Assembly (NCBI GenBank): GCA_964016885.1
Contig: OZ024742.1
Span: forward strand, 88,226,001 to 88,290,000
Reading direction: 5' to 3'
Length of the DNA stretch: 64,000 nt
DNA from: Eledone cirrhosa
Taxonomy: Eukaryota
Below are positions 1 through 56,479 of this stretch, piece by piece. The notes under the pieces were generated by a model that saw nothing but the letters and a program-made list of their open reading frames with translations, was not told where the DNA came from and searched no databases. Within the stretch, counting starts at the first letter, position 1; each line of letters begins with the position of its first letter. The translations under genes were made by a program, and so were the position numbers.

Positions 1-3000
1 TCAAGTGAAACTTGAAAAAGTTAATCAGGAATTCGCCGAAGAGGAAAGTGTTTGTCTTTAATCCTTTTAACCTTGTCCACCACACAATCTCTTTCGTCAT
101 GGCCACCAGGCAGATGAAAACCGCCTGCCCTGCCTCCTCAAAGGAACACGGCGAGGCCATCTGCACAATGGACTCAGTCGACAACCGGATCAGTCCCACA
201 CGTGACAGCAACTGTTCGACATAGCTCCACAAGTCAGCAATGCTCGGGCACTGAACGAGTGCGTGCACAACGGTTTCGTCGCTATGCGCGCATCTCGGGC
301 AGAGCTCGGCTGACGGCACTTCCGTGCCTGTAGAGCTTATCTCGAAACGGCAGTGCTCTCCGGTAGCACTGCCAGGCCAGGGATTTTTGGAAGTTATCCA
401 TAGGCCCCGGGCTGAAAGTTCTCCGGAAGAGAGCAAGTAGCTGATCTTCTTCGACGCCCAGGATCTCTCCGAGAACGTCGTCGCTCTTCCCCTCCACTAG
501 TCCTCTATAGAACGCCGAGATGGATGTTCCACCGATACTGGTGCCCAACTGGGAGAGGGCAGTGAGCGCCTGGCGACATTCCAGTTTCCAAGCGCTATCC
601 CTCGGTCTTTTTCTGACCCAGGACTGCAGCTCCGTCAAGGAGACGAGCTGTGCGAAAATGTGCCTGGCGAACGGCAACCACACCCGTTCACCAACAGGGA
701 AGCACCAGAGATATCGCAGCCTCAGCGCATGTTTGCGCATCATCAACCATGGCATGCCCAGTCCTCCACGCAACGGGTGTTGACAGCAGATGGACCGTCT
801 GACCATCGGAGCGCGTTCCTTCCACAAAAAGCGGAAGAGGAGGCGCTCCATTTTGGTGAGAGTTGGCCTGGAGCAAGGGACGACGGTGAGGCGGTAGCAG
901 ATGACAGATGCGATGTACGCATTCCCCACTTCCGCCCGGCCTTTCAGGGACAGCTTCCTCTCAGCCCATTTCTGGGTGAGGGAGGCCACCCTGCTCGTCA
1001 CCTCGTTCCCATTTTTCTCCATCTGGAGGTCCGGTCCGAACCAGACCACGAGCAATTTAACCGGTCCGTCCGTCCAACGCCCCACGACGCTGTCGGACGG
1101 CATGGACTTGCCTCTCCAGGTGCCTAGCTGCAAGCCCACCGACTTTTCCTGGTTTATCTTTGCTCCTGTCACCGTTTCGTATTCCTTGAGAGCGGTGCCG
1201 AGCATCTGGACGTGTCTGGTGCTCGACACCACCACGGTGTCGTCGTCAGCGTAAGCCGACTCGGATTTCCCGCATCCTAATTCGCATGGGACGCCCCTCA
1301 TCGCCCCCAGTTTGTGCAGTAACGGCTCGAGAGCCAATACGTACAAGAGGGACGAGAGGGGACAACCCTGGCGGACTGAGCGCATGATGCTGAATGGCTG
1401 CGACAGGTGACCGTTCACCCTCACAACTGGGCAGATGTCGTTGTACATCGCTGCGATGCAACGCCTGAAAACGGGCCCGAAACCGGCTGCCTCGAGGACC
1501 GCCGCCAGGTACCGATGGTCGACCTTATCGAATGCTTTGGATTGATCCAAGTTGATCAGGGCCCCACCATGGCCAGGTTCCTTAACCACCCTCTCTATGA
1601 TGTATCGCATGAGGTGGAGGTTGTCGTGTATGGATCTGTTTCGGGATGGCGCATATCTGCCCCTCTCCCACCAGACACTTGACGACAAGCGCCAACCTCG
1701 TTGGTAATACCATGGCCAAAATCTTGAACTCTGCGTTTAGCAGGGTTATGGGCCTGAAATTATCAATAACATCCCCCTTGTTCGGGTCTCTTCTCAGCAG
1801 CTGCACAGCTCCCCGGCTCACAAAACTGGGAATGCTCACGTTCTGCTGCCAGTTGCAGTAGACGTCTGCCAAGAGGTCACCGAACAAGTCTGGCATAAAT
1901 CCATAAAGCTCGTAGAGCAGACCATCTAAACCTGGCGATTTACCTCTTGTGCACAAGTTAGCCATCGCTTCCCGTATTTCACCGGCTGTTATTGGCTTTT
2001 CGCAACACTGTGCTGCAGTCGTCGAGGGCCGAGGCAGTCCGTCGAGGTATGCACCTAAGTCCATGTCCCGATCCGGGCCGCCGCCGCTCCGAACAGTTCA
2101 GCAAAGTGCTGCTGAAAAGCTTCTCACATCCGCTCAGGTTCGAGCATCACGCACCCGTTTTGGTCAGACAAAGACCCAATTGTGGCTTTATTGCCACGTC
2201 GCGCCTCTGCCACTCGGGCCCATTGGACGGCTTTTGTCCCCTCATGTTTCAGAGCACGCGATCTAGCTCTGACAACGCAGCCTTCGTGTTTTGCGTTGAA
2301 GAATTGGTCGAGTGCCAATCTCGCCGCAAGCACGTCGGTTGCGATGCCTGTCGTAAACGCCTCTTCTAGCTTTCTGACTAGCTCTCCCTCTACTGTATTT
2401 TCCTCTATCACTACTCCTTTGCTAAACCTAATCGACACTACTTTAATTGCTCTTTTCAGGGCGAACCACCACCTGTCGTTGACGACCGCTCCCGTCAGCG
2501 CCCGCTTAACTAATACGCTAATCCCGTCTCTGTAGGCCTTGCGCGCCGGGATAGACGCGTTCAGCTTCCAGTAACCAGGCCCTTGTCTATGAAGTCTGTC
2601 TATGTCGATCTCACAGATCACAAATTTGTGGTCTGTGTAGTCGACTATTTTAAATTGTGGACAACTTATACTAGCCTTATCTAGTTCCCTGCAGAATACC
2701 CTATCTAGATACGATCTGGATGACCCGATGCGGTTTTTCTATGTGCACATTGGCACATTCGGGTGATCCAGTCGATACCTGTCAGACAGTTCAAAACGTC
2801 TGAGCAGATTGGTGAGGCTCTTGAATCCTTCTCCCCTATCCACTAGCCCCACACGATCCCAGCGTGCATCCAAGATACCGTTCGAGTCGCCCACTAACAC
2901 TAAAGAGCGGGACGTTCCAAGAAAGGTCTCTAACGTCTGAAGAAATCTGAAAGTCCTGCCCTTGTTGGGGCATAGACGGCTACTAACCTGAAAGCATTGC

Positions 3001-10692: not shown

Positions 10693-10714
10693 CTATATAT
10701 ATATATATATATAT

Positions 10715-12921
10715 ACAATTAAGTTAAAAATGTACATCTACATATGCATACTGAAATACTAGTATGCATATGAATACACACACGTATACATATGTAGATG
10801 TACCAAGTCTTTCACTGGTTACTTTACTGTGAGTATCCAGCTATTCTGTATGTAAACACACAGACAAACCGGTTTTTAGAGTCATACTGGTTTTTGAGGA
10901 AACACCTTTCCTCTATTCTCCAGAAAGCCAGACAAGGAATATTGAACTAGTTTCGTTGTTGTTACAACTCATCAGCAATATTCACCTATCTACCGGCCTT
11001 TCTGGAGAATCGTAAAAGCACATATCGTTATATGCTTTTTCTATGAAAATTGGTAGTGGGCAGACTAATTTGCATAGAGTGTGAGTACGTACCAGTTCAA
11101 CGGAGACGATAAAAACAAATAACGAAACGAAATTAAATTTCGTTTCGTTTGTAACTCACTTTTGTATGACTGACGCTTAAACAATTAAGTTAAAAATGTA
11201 CATCTACATATGCATACTGAAATACTAGTATGCATATGAATACACACACGTATACATATGTAGATGTACCAAGTCTTTCACTTGTTACTTTACTGTGAGT
11301 ATCCAGCTATTCTGTATGTAAACACACAGACAAACCGGTTTTTAGAGTCATACTGGTTTTTGAGGAAACACCTTTCCTCTATTCTCCAGAAAGCCAGACA
11401 AGGAATATTGAACTAGTTTCGTTGTTGTTACAACTCATCAGCAATATTTATCTATCTACCGGCCAGTCATACAAAGTGAGTTACAAACGAAACGAAATTT
11501 AATTTCGTTTCGTTATTTGTTTTTATCGTCTCCGTTGAACCGGTACGTACTCACACTCTATGCAAATTAGTCTGCCCACTACTAATTTTCATAGAAAAAG
11601 CATATAACGATATGTACTTTTACGATTCTCCAGAAAGGCCTGTAGTTAGGTAAATATTGCTGATGAGTTGTAACAACAACGAAACTAGTTCAATATTCCT
11701 TGTCTGGCTTTTTGGAGAATAGAGGAAAGGTGTTTCCTCAAAAACCAGTATGACTCTAAAAACCAGTTTGTCTGTGTGTTTACATACAGAATAGCTGGAT
11801 ACTCACAGTAAAGTAACCAGTGAAAGACTTGGTACATCTACATATGTATACGTGTGTGTATTCATATGCATACTAGTATTTCAGTATGCATATGTAGATG
11901 TACATTTTTAACTTAATTGTTTAAGCGTTAGTCATACAAAAGTGAGTTACAAACGAAACGAAATTTAATTTCGTTTCGTTATTTGTTTTTATCGTCTCCG
12001 TTGAACCGGTACGTACCCACACTCTATGCAAATTAGTCTGCCCACTACTAATTTTCATAGAAAAAGCATATAACGATATGTGCTTTTACGATTCTCCAGA
12101 AAGGCCGGTAGATAGGTAAATATTGCTGATGAGTTGTAACAACAACGAAACTAGTTCAATATTCCTTGTCTGGCTTTCTGGTGAATAGAGGAAAGGTGTT
12201 TCCTCACAAACCAGTATGACTCTAAAAACCGGTTTGTCTGTGTGTTTACATACAGAATAGCTGGATACTCACAGTAAAGTAACCAGTGAAAGACTTGGTA
12301 CATCTACATATGTATACGTGTGTGTATTCATATGCATACTAGTATTTCAGTATGCATATGTAGATGTACATTTTTAAATTAATTGTTTAAGCGTCAGTCA
12401 TACAAAAGTGAGTTACAAACGAAACGAAATTTAATTTCGTTTCGTTATTTGTTTTTATCGTCTCCATTGAACCGGTACGTACTCACACTCAATGCAAATT
12501 AGTCTGCCCACTACTAATTTTCATAGAAAAAGCATATAACGATATGTGCTTTTACGATTCTCCAGAAAGGCCGGTAGATAGGTAAATATTGCTGATGAGT
12601 TGTAACAACAACGAAACTAGTTCAATATTTCTTGTCTGGCTTTCTGGAGAATAGAGGAAAGGTGTTTCCTCAAAAACCAGTATGACTCTAAAAACCGGTT
12701 TGTCTGTGTGTTTACATACAGAATAGCTGGATACTCACAGTAAAGTAACCAGTGAAAGACTTGGTACATCTACATATGTATACGTGTGTGTATTCATATG
12801 CATACTAGTATTTCAGTATGCATATGTAGATGTACATTTTTAACTTAATTGTTTAAGCGTCAGTCATACAAAAGTGAGTTACAAACGAAACGAAATTTAA
12901 TTTCGTTTCGTTATTTGTTTT
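10715..12921. mobile_element. HHR tandem array A (466-bp unit), fold-back: 10715-11464 minus sense, 11465-12921 plus sense
   Basis: Unit starts at 10715/11181 and 11465/11930/12396/12862. One HHR per full unit. (TA)n on both flanks. Confidence 0.92.
11653..11697 (+). ncRNA. Type I hammerhead ribozyme, family A (also + 12119-12163, 12585-12629; - 10938-10982, 11404-11448)
   Basis: AATATTG-CTGATGA-GTTGtaacaaCAAC-GAA-ACTAGT-T-CAATATT. Palindromic minimal stem III, GUU cleavage triplet. Confidence 0.88.
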
Positions 12922-13098
<177 letters not shown>

Positions 13099-19030: not shown

Positions 19031-19291
19031 GGCCGTATATTTATATATATATATATGTATAATAAAGGTAATCTGAGTTTTGCAAATATTAATAATAATC
19101 GATTCATTTGCAATTATACAAATAGCCTCTTTAAAGCCATGACAGGAGAACGACTTCGTCATTCTTGCTCTTTTGTTGCCATGTAGACAGAACTGCAGAC
19201 ACTAATGTTTCAGGGAGGAACAGTACACTATACTGTTTAATTGCCAACTGTCAGAGCTAGAGAAAATATATATTTTCAAAAATATAGTGAC

Positions 19292-19390
19292 TGATCGGCC
19301 TGATTTGCATATTAGCAGATTGCTTGATTAGACCGATCTGTATATTAGCAGACCCACTGATCAGCCAGATGTGCATATCAGCAGATAGGC
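19292..19390. repeat. 3 x 33-bp degenerate tandem repeat
   Basis: TGAT..G.C.GAT.TG.ATAT.AGCAGA at 19292, 19325 and 19358. Confidence 0.7.
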
Positions 19391-24219: not shown

Positions 24220-24249
<30 letters not shown>

Positions 24250-24255
<6 letters not shown>

Positions 24256-25593
24256 TTGGAGCTCTGAAATAGCAATATATATATGGATGTATATATAATG
24301 TATTTTGCAATACACTTTATGCTTAAATAATAGCATTTTGAAGACCGTATGCTATTGTTTTAGAGCAGTGACAAATTCACTTACTTTAATCTCAGCTAAC
24401 AGGGGAGATAAGCCGACAACACATTGTTTCGCATTTATTGGTGCTTATCAAGACTAACTACTCCCTCCTGTCTGCGGAGATCACTGATGTTATATTCTTA
24501 TAGAATTCTAGTAAATAATCAGGAACTGATTATACAGAGCGGTTGTTGGTCAGGCAGAAATTAAAAATTAGAATTGGAGCTCTGAAATAGCAATATATAT
24601 ATGGATGTATATATAATGTATTTTGCAATACACTTTATGCTTAAATAATAGCATTTTGAAGACCGTATGCTATTGTTTTAGAGTAGTAACAAATTCACTT
24701 ACTTTAATCTCAGCTAACAGGGGAGATAAGCCGATAAGACCTTGTTTCGCATTTATTGATGCTTATCAAGGCTAACTACTCCCTCCTGTCTGCCGAGATC
24801 ACTGATGTTATATTATGTTTGCTGAGATTAAAGTAAGTGAATTTGTCACTACTCTAAAACAATAGCATACGGTCTTCAAAATGCTTTTAATTAAGCATAA
24901 AGTGTATTGCAAAATACATTATATATACTTCCATATATATATTGCTATTTCAGAGCTCCAATTCTAATTTTTAATTTCTGCCTGACCAACAACCGCTCTG
25001 TATAATCAGTTCCTGATTATTTACTAAAATTCTATAAGAATATAACATCAGTGATCTCAGCAGACAGGAGGGAGTAGTTAGCCTTGATAAGCATCAATAA
25101 ATGCGAAACAAGGTCTTGTCGGCTTATCTCCCCTGTTTGCTGAGATTAAAGTAAATGAATTTGTCACTACTCTAAAACAATAGCATACGGTCTTCAAAAT
25201 GCTTTTAATTAAGCATAAAGTGTATTGCAAAATACATTATATATACATCCATATATATATTGCTATTTCAGAGCTCCAATTCTAATTTTTAATTTCTGCC
25301 TGTATAATCAGTTCCTGATTATTTCAGCTCTGTATAATCAGTTCCTGATTATTTACTAGAATTCTATAAGAATATAACATCAGTGATCTCGGCAGACAGG
25401 AGGAAGTAGTTAGCCTTGATAAGCATCAGTAAATGCGAAAAAAAGGTCTTGTCGGCTTATCTCCCCTGGTTGCTGAGATTAAAGTAAGTGAATTTGTCAC
25501 TACTCTAAAACAATAGCATACGGTCTTCAAAATGCTTTTAATTAAGCATAAAGTGTATTGCAAAATACATTATATATACATCCATATATATAT
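24250..25593. mobile_element. HHR tandem array B (318-bp unit), fold-back junction at about 24815
   Basis: Unit repeats at 24250/24568, inverted from 24816. One HHR per unit. (TA)n flanks. Confidence 0.9.
25080..25124 (+). ncRNA. Hammerhead ribozyme family B, U3-A8 core variant (also + 25412-25457; - 24411-24455, 24729-24773)
   Basis: AGCC-TTGATAA-GCATcaataaATGC-GAA-ACAAGgtCTTGT-C-GGCT, GUC triplet. Confidence 0.82.
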
Positions 25594-26182
25594 AAATTGA
25601 AACAAAATGAAAACGAAATTTCATTTCTCACTCTTAGTATGGCACTTACTTAAATGTAAGTATGCATGTATACGTACATACATATATGTATACAGACGTA
25701 CAGTAGCATGCACATATATATATATATATACACATATATATACATATGCATACAGGTACACATACATATATGCACGTATGAGTTTAGCGGCGCTTATTAT
25801 AACGTCGCTTTGTTCGTTTGTAAACAAACTGAACAGCCTGAATTTATGCCATACGGTGTTAAGGCAACCACGTCACCTTTTTGTTCAACACTGACACAGG
25901 AACGATGTACTAGTTTCAAGCTTGTTAGCTATCATCACCACCGTTTACCCATCTGCCAGATAGTTGAACGTTCGAAAGTATATACTTTCCTTATGAAAAT
26001 TAACGGCTGAGCAGCCTAATTTGCATATTGAGTGAGTTAAATCGGTCAGGCATACCGAAAACGATAAATTGAAACAAAATGAAAACGAAATTTCATTTCT
26101 CACTCTTAGTATGGCACTTACTTAAATGTAAGTATGCATGTATACGTACATACATATATGTATACAGACGTACAGTAGCATT

Positions 26183-26248
<66 letters not shown>

Positions 26249-27391
26249 TATACATATGCATACAGGTACACATACATATATGCACGTATCAGTTTAGCGG
26301 CGCTTATTATAACGTCGCTTTGTTCGTTTGTAAACAAACTGAACAGCCTGAATTTATGCCATACGGTGTTAAGGCAACCACGTCACCTTTTTGTTCAACA
26401 CTGACACAGGAACGATGTACTAGTTTCAAGCTTGTTAGCTATCATCAGCACCGTTTACCCATCTGCCAGATAGTTAAACGTTCGAAAGTATATACTTTCC
26501 TTATGAAAATTAACGGCTGAGCAGCCTAATTTGCATATTGAGTGAGTTAAATCGGTCAGGCATACTGAAAACGATAAATTGAAACAAAATGAAAACGAAA
26601 TTTCATTTCTCACTCTTAGTATGGCACTTACTTAAATGTAAGTATGCATGTATACGTACATACATATATGTATACAGACGTACAGTAGCATGCACATATA
26701 TATATATATATATATACACATATATATACATATGCATACAGGTACACATATATGCACGTATCAGTTTAGCGGCGCTTATTATAACGTCGCTTTGTTCGTT
26801 TGTAAACAAACTGAGTAGCCTGAATTTATGCCATACGGTGTTAAGGCAACCACGTCACCTTTTTGTTCAACACTGACACAGGAACGATGTACTAGTTTCA
26901 AGCTTGTTAGCTATCATCAGCACCGTTTACCCATCTGCCAGATAGTTGAACGTTAGAAAGTATATACTTTCCTTAAACTAGTACATCGTTCCTGTGTCAG
27001 TGTTGAACAAAACGTGACGTGGTTGCCTTAACACCGTATGGCATAAATTCAGGCTGTTCAGTTTGTTTACAAACGAACAAAGCGACGTTATAATAAGCGC
27101 CGCTAAACTCATACGTGCATATATGTATGTGTACCTGTATACATATGTATATATATATATATGTGAATGCTACTGTACGTCTGTATACATATATGTATGT
27201 ACGTATACATGCATACTTACATTTAAGTAAGTGCCATACTAAGAGTGAGAAATGAAATTTCGTTTTCATTTTGTTTCAATTTATCGTTTTCGGTATGCCT
27301 GACCGATTTAACTCACTCAATATGCAAATTAGGCTGCTCAGCCGTTAATTTTCATAAGGAAAGTATATACTTTCGAACGTTCAACTATCTG
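25594..27391. mobile_element. HHR tandem array C (about 470-510 bp unit), fold-back junction at 26975
   Basis: Units start at about 25594, 26066 and 26576. Inverted arm 26975-27391. Unit length varies through an internal (TA)n. Confidence 0.9.
26411..26455 (-). ncRNA. Hammerhead ribozyme family C (also 26883-26927; the 25901-25945 copy has C3G)
   Basis: AACGGTG-CTGATGA-tAGCTaacaAGCTt-GAA-ACTAGT-A-CATCGTT. Confidence 0.82.
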
Positions 27392-30300
27392 TGATTAGTT
27401 ATGACAAAACTCGATATATATATATACCTTATGTTGAAACATGAAAAAGTACATATAATACAGAGGGTGCCTATGAGAATGTGTATAAAGATATATAAAT
27501 GACTAATAATATATAATACATAAACTTATATAAAGTGTTAAACATTTAAATAATAGTAATATATTCATACCTCATTATTGTAGATAGTGGAAGTGAGAGA
27601 TTGAGATAGCAAATCACGAGGAAAGAGAGAAAAAGATGGAGATTTGATCGTAGGAACAAGAGAAGGGAGAAATGATCAAATGATAGAGAGAGGAAAATAA
27701 GTTAAATCGTATAAACGAAGGGAGGAAGATATGCATTGTAACATATACATAGCGTATAATTAGATGGGGGGGGGGGGGGATATTTAGGCACATGATGCGT
27801 GACCGTTTATTTTCAAATCTTAAGTTAATTAGAAATAGTAAATTAATCAAATAACATAACCTTTTAGACTATAACATTTTAAAGGATTTACATCAGAGTT
27901 CAAGCAAATGTTACGTGAAAGAGATAAATTTATGTTTATCATAACTCCAAAGGTATTCACAAGTATATTTAAAAGTATATTAAAATTAAAATATAAGCAA
28001 TATATTAGTAAAAAACATTAAAATTAAGATGTTATTAATAAGTCATAAAGCATTATAAATGTATTTAATAAGATATTTTAAAATCAGATTTATCTAGATA
28101 TACTCATTTGTATAATTTATATATAGACTATAAATTTTAAGGTTTAGGATGATATTAGTCACTTATATATAGTCTAATTACTATTAAGAGTGTTATAAAT
28201 TTGATTCAACTAGGTTTTACTGTATTTTAAATGTTACATCAATTTAAGTACACAATAATAGAATTCTTTAAATATTATGACTTCAAATTAGAAGCTGAAA
28301 GTAGCACTAAAGTAGTTAACTTCCTTGATGTCACCCTTAATTTAAATTCAGGACTATATTACCCCTTCCATAAGCCCAATGACAACCTAAATTATGTTAA
28401 CTCTTACTCAAATCACCCTAAATCCGTGGAAAATGCAATAGTCAATAGTTTTCAAAAACGCTTAACTAGATTATCCGCTAACAAATCCATTTTTGATGAA
28501 AAAGCTGGATATTATAATGAGGCATTACATAAGGCAGGATATCAAAATAATATTGAATATCTAGATAATACTAATTCGAATTATAAATTAGGTAAAAATA
28601 CGAATAACATAAATAAAGCGAACTCTAAAAATTATTTAAATATAATAAAAATAATAATGTCGTGAATAAATCTCGGAAAAAAATCAAAACGAAAGCAGTG
28701 ATTTGGTATGCACCTCCCGCGTCTTTAGCTATCAAAACACCCCTGGCAAATTTATTCTTTAAGGCTTTAGATAAATGCTTTCCCAGTACACAAAAATACC
28801 ATTCTATATTCAATAGACACACAATTAAGCTATCTTACTCTACAACTATGAATATGGCTCAGAACATTGCAAAAATAAATAGTAGAATACTTGTAGAGCT
28901 TTTATTATTTAACTATTATTATTGGCAGTATCGGTAGAGGGTCGGACGCCATGCTTTCCAGCATAGTTACGTCCCTTTACGATCTGAGTTCAAATCCCGC
29001 CGAGGTTGACTTTGGCCTTTCATCCTTACGGGGTCGATAAAATAAAGTACCAGTAATGCACTGGTTAATTGCTGGCCTTGTGCCTAAAGTAGAAACAATT
29101 ATTTAACTATTATTAATATTACTTTATGGGTTTCTACCTTAACATTGAAAGTGTTAACCTGATGTCTTGTTGAGTACGTATGACCTTTAGATTGTTTAAA
29201 TACATTCAATTTTGCTTTTTTGTATTTCTAAATCTTATATCTTATATATTTGATACCTTTTAATGTATTCAGATTTGTCAATTGTTTAATTACTTCGAAT
29301 GGTTGTTTACGATTCACGAGGATATGATTATACATTTATAGTATAAAAGTCTCCTTAGATCGTAGTTGATACATGTTGTTTGTACATAAACTAATGTAAA
29401 ATGTTAAATACAATAAAATCTAGTTGAATCAAATTTATAACAAGCTTAACAGTGATTATACTATATATAAGTGACTAATATCATCTTAAACCTTAACATT
29501 TATAGTCTATATATAAATTATACAAATGTGTATATCTAGATAAATCTGGTTTAATAATATCTTATTAAATACATTTATAATGCTTTATGACTTATTAATA
29601 ACATCTTAATTTTAATATTCTTTGACTAATATATTGATTATAATTTTATTTTAATATACTTTTAAATATACTTGTGATTACCTTTGGAGTAATGATAAAC
29701 AAAAAGTTATCTCTTTCACGTTACATTTGCTTGAACTCTGATATAATACAATAATATAAATCCTTTAAAATGATATAGTCTAAAATGTTATGTCATTTGA
29801 TTAATTTACTATTTCTAATTAACTTAAGGTTTGAAAATAAACGGTCACGCATCATGTGCCTAAATATTCTTTCCCCCCTATCTAATTATACGCTATGTAT
29901 ATGTTACAATGCATACCTTCCTCCCTTCGTTTATACGATTTAACTTGTTTTCCTCTCTCTATCATTTGATCATTTCTACCTTCTCTTGTTCCTACGATCA
30001 AGTCTCCTTTTTGTTCTCTCTTTCCTCGTGATTTGCTATCTCAATCTCTCACTTCCACTATCTACAATAATGAGGTATGAATATATTACTATTATTTAAA
30101 TGTTTAACAGTTATATAAGTTTATATATTATATATTATTAGTCATTTATATATCTTTATACACATTTCCATACGCACCCTCTGTATTATATGTAATTTTT
30201 CATGTTTCAACTTAAGGGAAATAAATATCGAGTGGTGTCATAACTAATCACTGCGATGACTAAATTATAACCATCAACATAGTCAAGGTATGTCAGGCAT

Positions 30301-30829: not shown

Positions 30830-32972
30830 TAATAACTGTGATTTAAATAGAAAAAGAAAAGTAATTATACCATTTTTTAATTACCTTTATCTAAAAGTAT
30901 AAATAGAAAATAAGCATAAAATAGTTAATTTTCTAGATGTAACCTTAACCCGTAACACATGTCTTCATTATCCATTTCACAAACTAAACGAGAACTTAAA
31001 CTACGTTAATTTTAACTCTAATCACCCCAGATCCGTTAAAAATTCTATAATGAATTCTGTACAGCAACGCATTTCTAGAATTTCAGCTAATAGGAATATA
31101 TTTGATGATAAAGCACATTATTACAACGAAGCATTAGGTCGAGCTGGATATAGAAATAAAATTAAATACATTGATATTAATAATATAACAACTAACCATA
31201 ATCTTAACAATTTTAACAACTATAATAGAAAACCTTACAATAATTCGGAAAACAAAAAAGAAATAGAACTAGGAATATATTATGGTTCGCTCCTCCTTTC
31301 TCATTAAATATTAAAACTCCTATTGCTAAACTATTCTTTAAAGCTTCCCTAGAACACATAGATATTACTCAATATTTAATAGACATACTATAAAATTAAC
31401 TTATTCATCCACCAAAAATTTAGCGCAGAATATTAATAGAATTAATAATGGAAAATTAAAATCTAACCAAAATACCACTAATAACCCCAGCAATATCCAA
31501 TTTAGTAATACAGCTCAATTTAATAATACAGCTACTACTGACTTAAATTTTGATAAATGTAACTGTAGAAATAAATCTAACTGTCCGTTAAATAACAATT
31601 GTTTAGCTCAAAATATACTATATAAATGAAATGTAAAAACTAATTTGAATTCATTTAATTATGTAGGATTTACTTCCACAGATTTTAAATCTCGTTTTAA
31701 TAATCATAAATGCTCTTTTACGCATTTAAACAAAAAATCTTCAACTTCTCTATCTAGCTTATTATGGGACCTTAAATTAAAGAACGTTAAATATTCGTTA
31801 CTTTGGAATGTTATTTCAAAAGCTACTCCATTTAACTCCTCTTCCGAAAATTGCCATATTTGTATAGAAGAAATATTCTTTATATTAAAAAGCAAACATT
31901 CCATGAACGTAAGAAGCAATATTTTCAGTTGCTTCAAACATAGATTGAATTCAACGTTTAAATATAAATTTAAAATATAATATATAACTCATACTATTAA
32001 ATATATTGAACCTATCGATAAATCATTAGATTCATTCATTTGACTGCTTAAAACTCTCGTTACATAAAAAAAAATTTCCTAGAATATTTTCTAGATAAAC
32101 ATACTGAAAGCTCTTAAAAGGGGAACATATTTTCTTTGAAAGTTTCTCCTATTTTTGAAAGTTTCTCTTTTTGAAAGTTTCTCTTTCTTTTTCTTTGAAA
32201 ATTTCTCATATGGTTATAACAATTAAGTTAAACATACTGAGAGATAAATATTATATATAAAAAATTTAAATTCATTTTTATACTGAATTTTTAGACATAT
32301 TCTTATTTTAAAATTATATCTTAAAATATATATTAATATTTAAAAAAAAAAAATATTGCTTTAAAGTTATATTGCTTGAAATTGTATGAATATATTTCCA
32401 AATCGTAATTCCTTTTAAAACTATAATTCATTTTTATTTTTATTTTATTTCATATATTATGTATTTTAATTATATTATGTACTTTATTTTATCTCTCTCT
32501 CTATATATATATATATATGTATGATGCATGTCTACCGGTATGTGTATATATATATGTGTGTGTATCTATGTAGGGGTTGTGTATATGTATATATACATAA
32601 AATTCGAATGCACTCTGTTATAAAGGATTTCTTACGGTTTATGCTAAACAAACTTATATAATAACAGTCACGTCTACATAACAGGTGAATTTATTAGATA
32701 TAACATTTATAAAAGTTATAAAATTATAATTTACTATTGAATAATATAAGGTTTGTATAATCTTAAATTTCCTTTATTATCTTAACATTTATAACATTTA
32801 ATATAAGTAAATAACTTAATTTCCTTCACGCTGATTTGCTATTACATACAAATGATTTTTCTCCGATTTTTTCTCCGATTTCTCCGAAAAATCTATAAGT
32901 TTCGAAAACTTCCTATATCTTAAACATAAAAAATCTGTTATTGTATGTATAGATATGTATGTGTATGTATAT

Positions 32973-33006
<34 letters not shown>

Positions 33007-33722
33007 GTGCGTATGTATATATATGAATATATTCTTTTAATAATATATAGATTTTTTTAATAATATATAGTTTTAATAATATATAGATTTTAAAAATATA
33101 TAGATCTCAATTTTAATGTATAGATCTCAATAATTTAATTGATAATTTAATTGATAAACTAAACATTTAATCATATATAAACACTGGATAAAATTCTCCA
33201 GTTATTATTATTTATATATTTTCTAATCACGCTTATTTACTCTTCCTAACTCATCCATTAAATATTTATTTGTTCACTTCATCTTAGAAGTTACGCTAAT
33301 ACTACTACCTATCACTTAGGGCTTTCTCTTTCTCTTTCTCTGTCTTCTTCTCTTTCTCTTTCTCTTTCTCTTGTTTTCTTATTTTCCTCTTAGGGTTTGC
33401 TCTTTTTCTCTTTTTTTCTCTTTTTCTCTTTTCTCCCTTTTCTTTTCTTTCCCTTTTTTTCCATACTTCAACGGCTTATTTTAAATCTACTGTGATTTAA
33501 ACAAATCCGACACTAATTTGCATAATAGACTAAATAAATTTAATAACCCCACTATCAGGTAGCTTCCAACAGAAATGGTCACATTCTTTAAGGGTATGTC
33601 AATATGTATTTATAAAACTAATCTATATTATATTTTACCTGATGAAAGCACACCATAATTTAACTTGGTGTCCTTGAAATATATATAATGAAATAAATAT
33701 GGTTTTATAAATATAGTTTCCA
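30830..33722 (+). mobile_element. Penelope-like element 3' part (RT thumb + GIY-YIG 30900-31980, long 3' UTR)
   Basis: VNFLDVTL, SNHP, CNC..CPLNNNC, NYVGFT..FKSRF.NH. HHR near the 3' end. Confidence 0.82.
33631..33694 (+). ncRNA. Hammerhead ribozyme (one stem I mismatch) at PLE 3' end
   Basis: TATTTTAC-CTGATGA-AAGCACACCA..TGGTGTCCTT-GAA-ATATATAT-A-ATGAAATA. Confidence 0.65.
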
Positions 33723-55413: not shown

Positions 55414-56479
55414 TAAACGGAAACGAAATTTCATTTCCCACTCTTAGTACGGCTATTAGTTAAATATAAGTATCTACACGTACATACATATATGTATACA
55501 AACGTACAGTAGTATGTATATATATATACATACATGCACACACATATATATATGTACGTATGGATCCACCGAACATTTATTATAATGCTCAGTGTATTTG
55601 TAAACAAACATCCCGTATTAAGCCGTAGTGTCTAGCAACCATCGTTGCTCGTTTGTTCAACACTGACAAAGGAACGCTGTACTAGTTTCAAGCTTATTCG
55701 CTATCGTCAGCAACGTACACTTTCCTGCCACTTTCCTTATGCATATTAACGGCTGAGTAGCCCAATTTGCATATCGAGTGGGTTAATCGGCCGGGTGCAC
55801 CGAAAACGATAAATGGAAAAAAAATGAAACGAAATTTCATTTCCAATTCTTAGTACGGCTGTTACTTAAATATAAGTATGTACACGTACATACATATATG
55901 TATACAGACGTACAGTCGTATGTATATATATATACATACATACACACATATATATATATATATGTATGTATGGATTCACCGAACATTTATTATAATGCTC
56001 AGTCTGTTTGTAAACAAACAGCCCGTATTATGCCGTAGTGTCTAGAAACCATCGTTGCTCGTTTGTTCAACACTGACAAAGGAACGCTGTACTCGTTTCA
56101 AGCTTATTAGCTATCGTCAGCAACGTACACCTTCCTGCCAGATTGTTGAACGTATATACTTACCTTGTGCATATTAACGGCTGAGTAGCCCAATTTGCAT
56201 AACGAGTGGGTTAATCGGCCGGGTGCACCAAAAACGATAAACGTTGTTGACGATAGCTAATAAGCTTGAAACTAGTACGGCGTTCCTTTGTCAGTGTTGA
56301 ACAAACGAGCAACGATGGTTGCTATACACTACGGCTTAATACGGGATGTTTGTTTACAAACACACTGAGCATTATAATAAATGTTCGGTGAATCCATACG
56401 TACATATATCCATGTGTGCATGTATGTATATATATATACATACTACTGTACGTCTGTATACATATATGTATGTACGTGT

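What the first reader, a model, noticed from the sequence alone, without database searches (positions are those of the whole stretch)
11995..12375. Conserved octamer-containing module upstream of the ribozyme and a T4-free body: possible internal snRNA/Pol III type-3 promoter
Seen: A has ATGCAAATTAGTCTGCCCACTACTAATTTTCATAGAAAAAGCATATA and C (27321-27369) has ATGCAAATTAGGCTGCTCAGCCGTTAATTTTCATAAGGAAAGTATATA. D keeps ATGCAAAT..CTCAGCCGTTAAT. Downstream, about 290-330 nt of AT-rich sense strand lacks TTTT until a T5 (A, after a hairpin) or T4 run (C). Known: octamer, PSE and TATA define compact U6/H1-type promoters, and T4 or longer terminates Pol III. Inference: each unit is a self-contained transcription unit. 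Caveat: the TATA also lies in a small palindrome and could be RNA structure instead.
Basis: inference. Interest (0 to 1): 0.75.

Follow-up and report, generated by a model that had tools for sequence, protein, structure and literature searches.

The report
Retrozyme carrying its own snRNA promoter
This is one unit of a high-copy jumping repeat with a hammerhead (self-cutting RNA) motif; each unit carries DNA boxes like those in front of the host's own small-nuclear-RNA genes, which likely let it switch itself on, probably through RNA polymerase II rather than III, but no transcript has been shown.

Summary
The module is real. It lies in a 466-bp type I hammerhead repeat (family A, a non-LTR retrozyme) with Penelope-type fixed ends. 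Its 12-bp box TATGCAAATTAG matches the box at -76..-79 of 7 host Pol III promoters (U6 x3, U6atac, MRP, tRNA-Sec x2). In sister families, a profile built from host U1/U2/U4/U5 promoters ranks octamer+16 first or second of 160 positions in 14 of 15 copies; A is the exception (rank 29). The TATA lies 25-27 bp from that site, as in host Pol II genes (23-29) and unlike Pol III genes (30-33). No 3' box was found. A self-contained Pol III unit ending at T5 12371 is not supported: 40 of 47 mapped ends fall on two fixed sites beyond that T5, and the promoter is copied with the element. A modest T4 depletion (4 vs 9.3, P=0.02) keeps Pol III or dual use open. Both boxes also sit in RNA hairpins. No RNA data were available. 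The closest precedent is newt satellite 2. This scan already reported the idea on other DNA of this genome.

The parts
10712..12924 (.). Family A insertion: two diverging arms of a 466-bp unit (minus arm 11464 to 10712, plus arm 11464 to 12924, 3.1 units), flanked by (TA)n; outer ends at unit offsets 363 and ~431
12025..12036 (+). Extended octamer box TATGCAAATTAG, like the box at -76..-79 of host U6, U6atac, MRP and tRNA-Sec promoters; also the 5' arm of hairpin 12023-12061
12040..12053 (+). PSE position (octamer+14..27). In A it matches neither host profile (p 0.22 Pol II class, 0.10 U6 class); in sister families it carries YCA(G/C), often followed four bases later by TGTA, like host U1/U2/U4/U5
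12067..12074 (+). TATA-like CATATAAC at octamer+41 (C, D +42; E, F +43; host U6 class +46..48), inside hairpin 12062-12087
12097..12099 (+). Predicted start (A12098 in CAG), from host TATA -31 and PSE -56/-57; U6 octamer geometry would give 12103. Inferred, not observed
12119..12163 (+). Type I hammerhead: stem I AATATTG/CAATATT, core CTGATGA..GAAAC, very short stem III with palindromic ACTAGT; predicted cut 12156/12157
   Evidence: Rfam HH9, E 2.6e-8, 38.6 bits, below the 52-bit cut-off
12088..12370 (+). T4-free stretch of the sense strand
12371..12375 (+).
12384..12389 (+). Register of the short fixed 3' end (offsets 358-363; 17 ends)
12418..12457 (+). Tail: hairpin 12418-12446, second T5 12452-12456, long fixed 3' end at ~12457 (offsets 431-433; 23 ends)
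25592..27391 (.). Family C insertion with the homologous module at 26536(-), 26026(-) and 27322(+, cut after 69 nt)
55415..56442 (-). D, a C-related insertion; modules at 56200(-) and 55772(-, TATA deleted)
19040..19310 (-). Decayed family F copy with the same module and a broken ribozyme core (lower limit approximate)

Best explanation
The stretch is one unit of a high-copy non-coding repeat with a type I hammerhead motif and Penelope-type fixed ends, and it carries an octamer box and a TATA-like box that likely act as an internal snRNA-type promoter read mainly by RNA polymerase II. Shown in sequence: the boxes, their match to host promoters, Pol II-class spacing, no 3' box, ends beyond the T-runs. 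Inferred: an Oct/POU factor, SNAPc and TBP would start transcription near 12098, about 59 nt before the cut site. With no 3' box the RNA would run through the next units. Hammerheads would cut it to 466-nt monomers that contain the promoter sequence and could circularise. A Penelope-type RT would copy this RNA from two fixed sites into (TA)n, so the promoter travels with every copy. The hairpins around the octamer and TATA would be RNA-level packing around DNA-level motifs.
For: YTATG(C/G)(A/T)AAT(T/G)AG at -76..-79 in 7 distinct host Pol III promoters; the two tRNA-Sec genes were found later as hold-outs. A, C, D, E and F score 15-19 bits on the 5-gene profile (host leave-one-out 14-18). A profile from 15 host U1/U2/U4/U5 promoters ranks octamer+16 first of 160 positions in 10 of 15 element copies and first or second in 14 of 15. 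PSE-to-TATA distance: host Pol II genes 23-29 (11 of 15 had a match; U3, U11, U12 25-28), host Pol III genes 30-33 (7 octamer-class by octamer+16, plus 7SK 33 and RNase P 32), main element families 25-27. In a pattern search with no TATA term (3,071 hits vs 1 control), the first TATA lay at +43 in 19 of 30 loci, +40 in 5, +50 in 1, absent in 5, and never at +46..48; 20 of 30 had a hammerhead core. No 3' box in 6 of 6 units (best 3.5 bits; host 11-24 in 11 of 13). In 27 A loci, 40 of 47 printed ends lie at two fixed sites past T5 12371; 13 of 13 two-armed insertions have one long and one short end. This fits the two RT start sites in PMC11167929. C long ends pass T7-T8 in 5 of 9 loci. The octamer is constant while its pairing partner and register change between families. 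Precedent: newt satellite 2 (as cited in PMC2220036 and PMC6765202).
Against: No transcript data. A's own PSE position fits neither host class, and its TATA is CATATAAC. Part of the PSE match (TGTA, AG) also pairs with the octamer arm in RNA. The families are related and many of the 30 loci are family F, so the counts are not independent. Families E, F and L193-L198 were found with an octamer pattern, and I saw TCAG/TGTA by eye before fixing the profile window. T4 runs are modestly depleted, and the host Pol III RNAs tested lack them. No host gene tested combines octamer, TCAG and short spacing. In human, small spacing differences do not decide the polymerase (PMC11696126). Family H has U6-type spacing and is also copied past T5-T8, so read-through alone does not identify the polymerase. 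The predicted start lies inside the extended helix I.
Confidence: 0.5

Rival explanations
1. The module is a Pol III type-3 promoter, or a dual Pol II/III promoter like human H1. It makes a ~275-nt RNA ending at the T5, and multimers come from leak-through or from host read-through.
For: The octamer box is seen only in the host's Pol III class. T4 depletion 4 vs 9.3 (P=0.021), and T4 4 vs A4 17. A has CC at +15/16 like most U6-class genes (weak, p 0.10). A's long end coincides with the second T5. Human RPPH1, with DSE next to PSE, directs both polymerases (PMC9652321). Family H has U6 spacing.
Against: Octamer-to-TATA is 41-43 against 46-48 in 7 of 7 host genes. E2 and two older families carry T4 in the body. 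The A4 excess equals its dinucleotide expectation (17 vs 17.6). No insertion ends at T5 12371, and an RNA from start to T5 lacks the promoter and both RT sites.
Confidence: 0.22
2. The module is not a working promoter. It is conserved as RNA structure or as a binding site for the Penelope protein or a host RNA-binding protein, and the RNA comes from read-through of host transcription.
For: The octamer and TATA both fold into hairpins (A z -5.3), and the whole monomer is highly paired (z -10.2). Helix I starts upstream of the predicted start. A lacks a recognisable PSE. No RNA data.
Against: The motifs match, in sequence and spacing, host DNA promoter elements that show no common hairpin. 7 of 11 module folds are no more stable than shuffles (z above -2) and the register shifts, while the octamer stays fixed, including an unpaired C.
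Confidence: 0.2
3. The promoter was functional in the ancestor and still is in F- and C-like families, but it is weakened or vestigial in A, which relies mostly on neighbouring transcription.
For: A scores -13.8 bits at the PSE site and has C for the first T of TATA.
Against: A keeps the 12-bp box and the spacing, and it is young and abundant (99% identical copies on many contigs).
Confidence: 0.08

Closest known systems
Newt satellite 2 (Coats, Zhang and Epstein 1994; Cremisi 1992; neither held; known from citing passages in PMC2220036 and PMC6765202)
   Same: Tandem hammerhead repeat with an internal snRNA-type promoter read by Pol II.
   Different: Here an invertebrate-type genome and many families. 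The octamer sits directly before the PSE with a TATA-like box, and the promoter is inferred, not tested. The newt layout could not be compared in detail.
Metazoan non-LTR retrozymes (PMC7229834; 10.64898/2026.07.22.740005)
   Same: Short non-coding tandem units, type I hammerhead in each unit, highly paired monomer, Penelope-like elements as the proposed mobiliser.
   Different: Word searches of the main texts found no internal promoter described; supplements were not seen. RNA circles are not shown here.
Penelope-like element 'tail' and two RT start sites (PAc; PMC11167929)
   Same: Two fixed 3' ends bounding a tail, insertion in AT-rich DNA.
   Different: No ORF in the unit, the tail is ~70 nt, and the partner element was not identified.
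Pol III type-3 promoters (U6, 7SK, H1/RPPH1)
   Same: Octamer box and TATA in a compact layout; octamer next to the PSE as in RPPH1 (PMC9652321).
   Different: Spacing 4-6 bp shorter than every host Pol III gene tested; Pol II-class PSE in sister families; promoter lies inside the copied unit.
Schistosome SM-alpha repeats (as described in PMC6765202; primary paper not held)
   Same: Hammerhead repeat with an internal promoter; the upstream unit transcribes the next one.
   Different: Described as Pol III and SINE-like; here the boxes are of snRNA upstream type.

Membership tests
Metazoan non-LTR retrozyme | Type I hammerhead in each unit | tested here: met
   Core and stems in all 5 A units; Rfam HH9 E 2.6e-8 but below the cut-off
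Metazoan non-LTR retrozyme | Short non-coding tandem units, many dispersed copies | tested here: met
   466 bp x 3.1; no ORF of 150 aa; 156 matches from 40 of 536 candidates scored
Metazoan non-LTR retrozyme | Self-cleavage and circular RNA | not testable with these tools
   No RNA run listed
Penelope-mobilised element | Two fixed 3' ends with a tail, inverted arms, AT-rich target | tested here: met
   40 of 47 ends; 13 of 13 two-armed insertions long plus short; C similar
Penelope-mobilised element | Identified autonomous partner sharing the ends | not tested
   Only decayed RT- and GIY-YIG-like pieces seen in the window
Pol III type-3 promoter (host class) | Host U6-class octamer box | tested here: met
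Pol III type-3 promoter (host class) | TATA 46-48 after the octamer, 30-33 after the PSE site | tested here: not met
   41-43 and 25-27
Pol III type-3 promoter (host class) | T4-free body ending at oligo(T) | tested here: inconclusive
   Pooled P 0.021-0.077, single families not significant; copies pass the T-runs
Pol II snRNA promoter (host class) | PSE TCAG-N4-TGTA | tested here: inconclusive
   Rank 1-2 in 14 of 15 copies, but not met in A
Pol II snRNA promoter (host class) | PSE-to-TATA 23-29 bp | tested here: met
   25-27
Pol II snRNA promoter (host class) | Upstream AATTAA box and no octamer | tested here: not met
   Host consensus has AATTAA about 33 bp before the PSE; elements have the octamer instead
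Pol II snRNA gene | 3' box | tested here: not met
Any snRNA-type promoter | SNAPc binding and a start at a fixed distance | not testable with these tools
   Needs ChIP, RACE or a reporter

The most novel reading that the evidence does not exclude
A whole clade of retrozymes carries a chimeric snRNA promoter (U6-class octamer box, U1/U2-class PSE and spacing, no 3' box) inside the RNA that it copies. Sister families switch polymerase class by a 4-6 bp spacing change (A/C/E/F at 41-43, family H at 47). Tens of thousands of mobile Oct/SNAPc/TBP sites would then spread through their own circular RNA.
Probability: 0.3. Interest if true: 0.72.

Novelty: new variant of a known kind. Interest (0 to 1): 0.5.

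Why it matters
How animal retrozymes come to be transcribed at high levels is not addressed in the retrozyme papers read here, and the newt case is the only snRNA-promoter precedent found. A promoter that can be read against the host's own snRNA genes gives an exact predicted start, a polymerase prediction, and mutations that separate DNA function from RNA structure. [quoted passage not shown] That is useful for U6-driven tools.

Tried and rejected
No RNA holder was listed. Four of the 6 runs, kind unknown and held as contigs, were laid. They cover the unit, and X1 shows (TA)n loose ends at both fixed sites, but they say nothing on expression. L159 was first read as a host Pol III gene; it is a hammerhead family. 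One family among the 14,360 octamer..CTGAYGA hits is LINE coding sequence, so that count is not a copy number. An apparent pile-up of C 5' ends at +60 was set aside: the query carries a private T at +59, and the search favours rare words. The minus arm starts at +77, the U6-type start, but only 2 of about 36 A 5' ends lie at +70..78 (read by hand). Whole-window Rfam at gathering threshold: 0 hits. U4atac and U3 did not fit the PSE profile at the usual place. U6 copies without the proximal box (2 of 20 loci, 6 array copies with an insertion, 4 extra loci) and 5 of 6 U6atac loci were left out of the profiles as probable retrocopies or interrupted copies. Coats 1994, Cremisi 1992, Ferbeyre 1998 and Lescure 1991 are not held. 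The supplement of PMC7229834 could not be read and may hold mussel or coral sequences that bear on generality and novelty. 8 paper searches found no report of this module in this group.

Full report
What it is. 11995-12375 is most of one unit of a 466-bp repeat: 3.1 tandem units plus an inverted arm, 10712-12924. Each unit has a type I hammerhead at 12119-12163 (Rfam HH9, E 2.6e-8, below cut-off), with a very short palindromic stem III. No ORF of 150 aa overlaps it. Copies are about 99% identical on many contigs of a 3-Gb genome. The cut-to-cut monomer folds at z -10.2. This fits metazoan non-LTR retrozymes (PMC7229834, passages and Discussion read; 10.64898/2026.07.22.740005, abstract and passages read). 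Earlier scan notes call the host an octopus; I did not test this.

Observation. The quoted strings are present in A, C and D. The A/C module is the best-aligned of three non-ribozyme parts compared (z 13.6 vs 7.4 and 5.3).

Host promoters. I fetched host U1, U2, U3, U4, U5, U11, U12, U4atac, U6, U6atac, 7SK, RNase P, MRP and tRNA-Sec loci. Polymerase classes are assigned from general knowledge, not from a call. Octamer class: three U6 types, U6atac, MRP and two tRNA-Sec genes carry TATG(C/G)(A/T)AAT(T/G)AG at -76..-79, with the first TATA 46-48 bp after it. TCAG class: U1, U2, U4 and U5 have AATTAA near -90, TCAG-N4-TGTA at -55..-58 and a TATA-like box near -31. Only 1 of 50 U1/U2 loci had an octamer within 400 bp, reversed at -399. 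7SK and RNase P have TCAGT with 33 and 32 bp to TATA and end in long T-runs. So PSE-to-TATA is 23-29 in Pol II genes and 30-33 in Pol III genes, taking octamer+16 as the PSE site of the octamer class.

The module. A, C, D, E and F score 15-19 bits on the octamer-class profile. A profile from 15 non-redundant U1/U2/U4/U5 promoters ranks octamer+16 first of 160 positions in 10 of 15 element copies and first or second in 14 of 15. Scores run from -2.3 (E) to 14.3 (F); host leave-one-out scores are 0.6-20.3. A ranks 29 (p 0.22). Four copies of two other hammerhead families (G, H) and the five U6-class genes do not match there. A does not match the U6-class profile either (p 0.10). TATA lies at +41 (A), +42 (C, D) and +43 (E, F). 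In 30 loci picked by an octamer+PSE pattern with no TATA term (3,071 hits, 1 control hit), the first TATA was at +43 in 19, +40 in 5, +50 in 1, absent in 5 and never at +46..48. TATA and PSE both predict a start at +72/73 (12098), where A, C, E and F have CAG. Limits: the families are related, most were found through the octamer, and I had seen TCAG/TGTA by eye before fixing the profile window.

RNA structure. The TATA and the octamer both sit in hairpins. In 11 modules the fold recurs, but only 4 beat shuffles by z below -2. The pairing register differs between A/C/D/E and F-like families, and the octamer is constant even at an unpaired C. This favours a sequence constraint with structure built around it. 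TGTA and AG of the PSE also pair with the octamer arm, so part of that match may be structural.

T-runs and ends. One family at a time, the T4-free stretch is within chance. Pooled over 11 fixed 170-nt windows, there are 4 T4 runs against 9.3 (P 0.021, dinucleotide) or 8.1 (P 0.077, mononucleotide); four host Pol III RNAs have none inside. That is a modest point for Pol III. I mapped ends in 27 distinct A loci (the 20 and 7 of the A-type loci, overlapping neighbours left out). Of 47 printed ends, 17 lie at offsets 358-363 and 23 at 431-433. The other 7 are 4 internal matches or junctions, 1 deletion and 2 ends elsewhere. All 13 insertions with two fixed ends have one long and one short. The query register favours long ends among top hits, but the 7 pattern-picked loci show the same two sites. 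C has ends at ~413 and ~472; 17 of 43 C units have T6-T9 just before the long end. This matches the two RT start sites bounding the Penelope tail (PMC11167929, parts 1-2 of 4 read). The T5 at 12371 is therefore not the end of the copied RNA, and an RNA from start to T5 could not carry the promoter. No 3' box was found in 6 of 6 units.

Mechanism (steps inferred). An snRNA-type complex starts Pol II near 12098. The RNA reads through because there is no 3' box. Hammerheads cut it to monomers, which may circularise. A Penelope-type RT copies it from two sites into (TA)n. Confidence 0.5. Pol III or dual use 0.22: RPPH1 with DSE next to PSE directs both polymerases (PMC9652321, passages); human spacing differences of about 3 nt do not decide the polymerase, and U6 tolerates -2/+3 (PMC11696126, passages), whereas the deficit here is 4-6. 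No promoter, structure only, 0.2. Vestigial in A 0.08. Family H, with U6 spacing, is also copied past T5-T8, so read-through alone does not fix the polymerase.

Known and new. Newt satellite 2 is reported to use an internal snRNA promoter and Pol II (passages in PMC2220036 and PMC6765202; primary papers not held). Spacing-based specificity in plants and Xenopus was seen only as titles in reference lists. PMC1761439, PMC6309819 and PMC13652810 (passages) added nothing specific. Eight searches found no report of this module in this group; unread supplements may bear on this. The scan noted the same idea on other DNA of this genome.

Noticed in passing
   Followed up: partly
host loci L021-L098, L163-L192, L203-L219: Host Pol II snRNA genes have TATA-like boxes near -31. 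Pol III genes split into an octamer class (U6, U6atac, MRP, tRNA-Sec) and a TCAGT class (7SK, RNase P).
   Followed up: yes
L027, L028, L030-L033: 6 of 16 fetched copies of a tandem U6 array have an insertion of about 190 bp between the promoter and the gene (octamer box moved to -270).
   Followed up: no
window 28231-28934 and 30903-31977: Decayed Penelope-like RT and GIY-YIG pieces (Pfam GIY-YIG E 0.004, below cut-off; RT motif read by eye) next to family C, with another hammerhead-like core at 33639.
   Followed up: partly
L114, L156-L158; window 19310(-): Family F carries short tandem repeats of octamer-like units upstream of its module; L193 and L234 show duplicated modules.
   Followed up: no
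window 56200(-) and 55772(-): D has lost 8 nt of the TATA palindrome arm in one unit and the whole TATA in the other, probably deletions at the palindrome.
   Followed up: no
window 24995-25593: A 333-bp repeat (1.8 copies) with inverted arms at 24244-25302, of similar layout but with no canonical hammerhead core found.
   Followed up: no
L102, L016: Two A insertions on different contigs share the same short arm (offsets 148-358).
   Followed up: no
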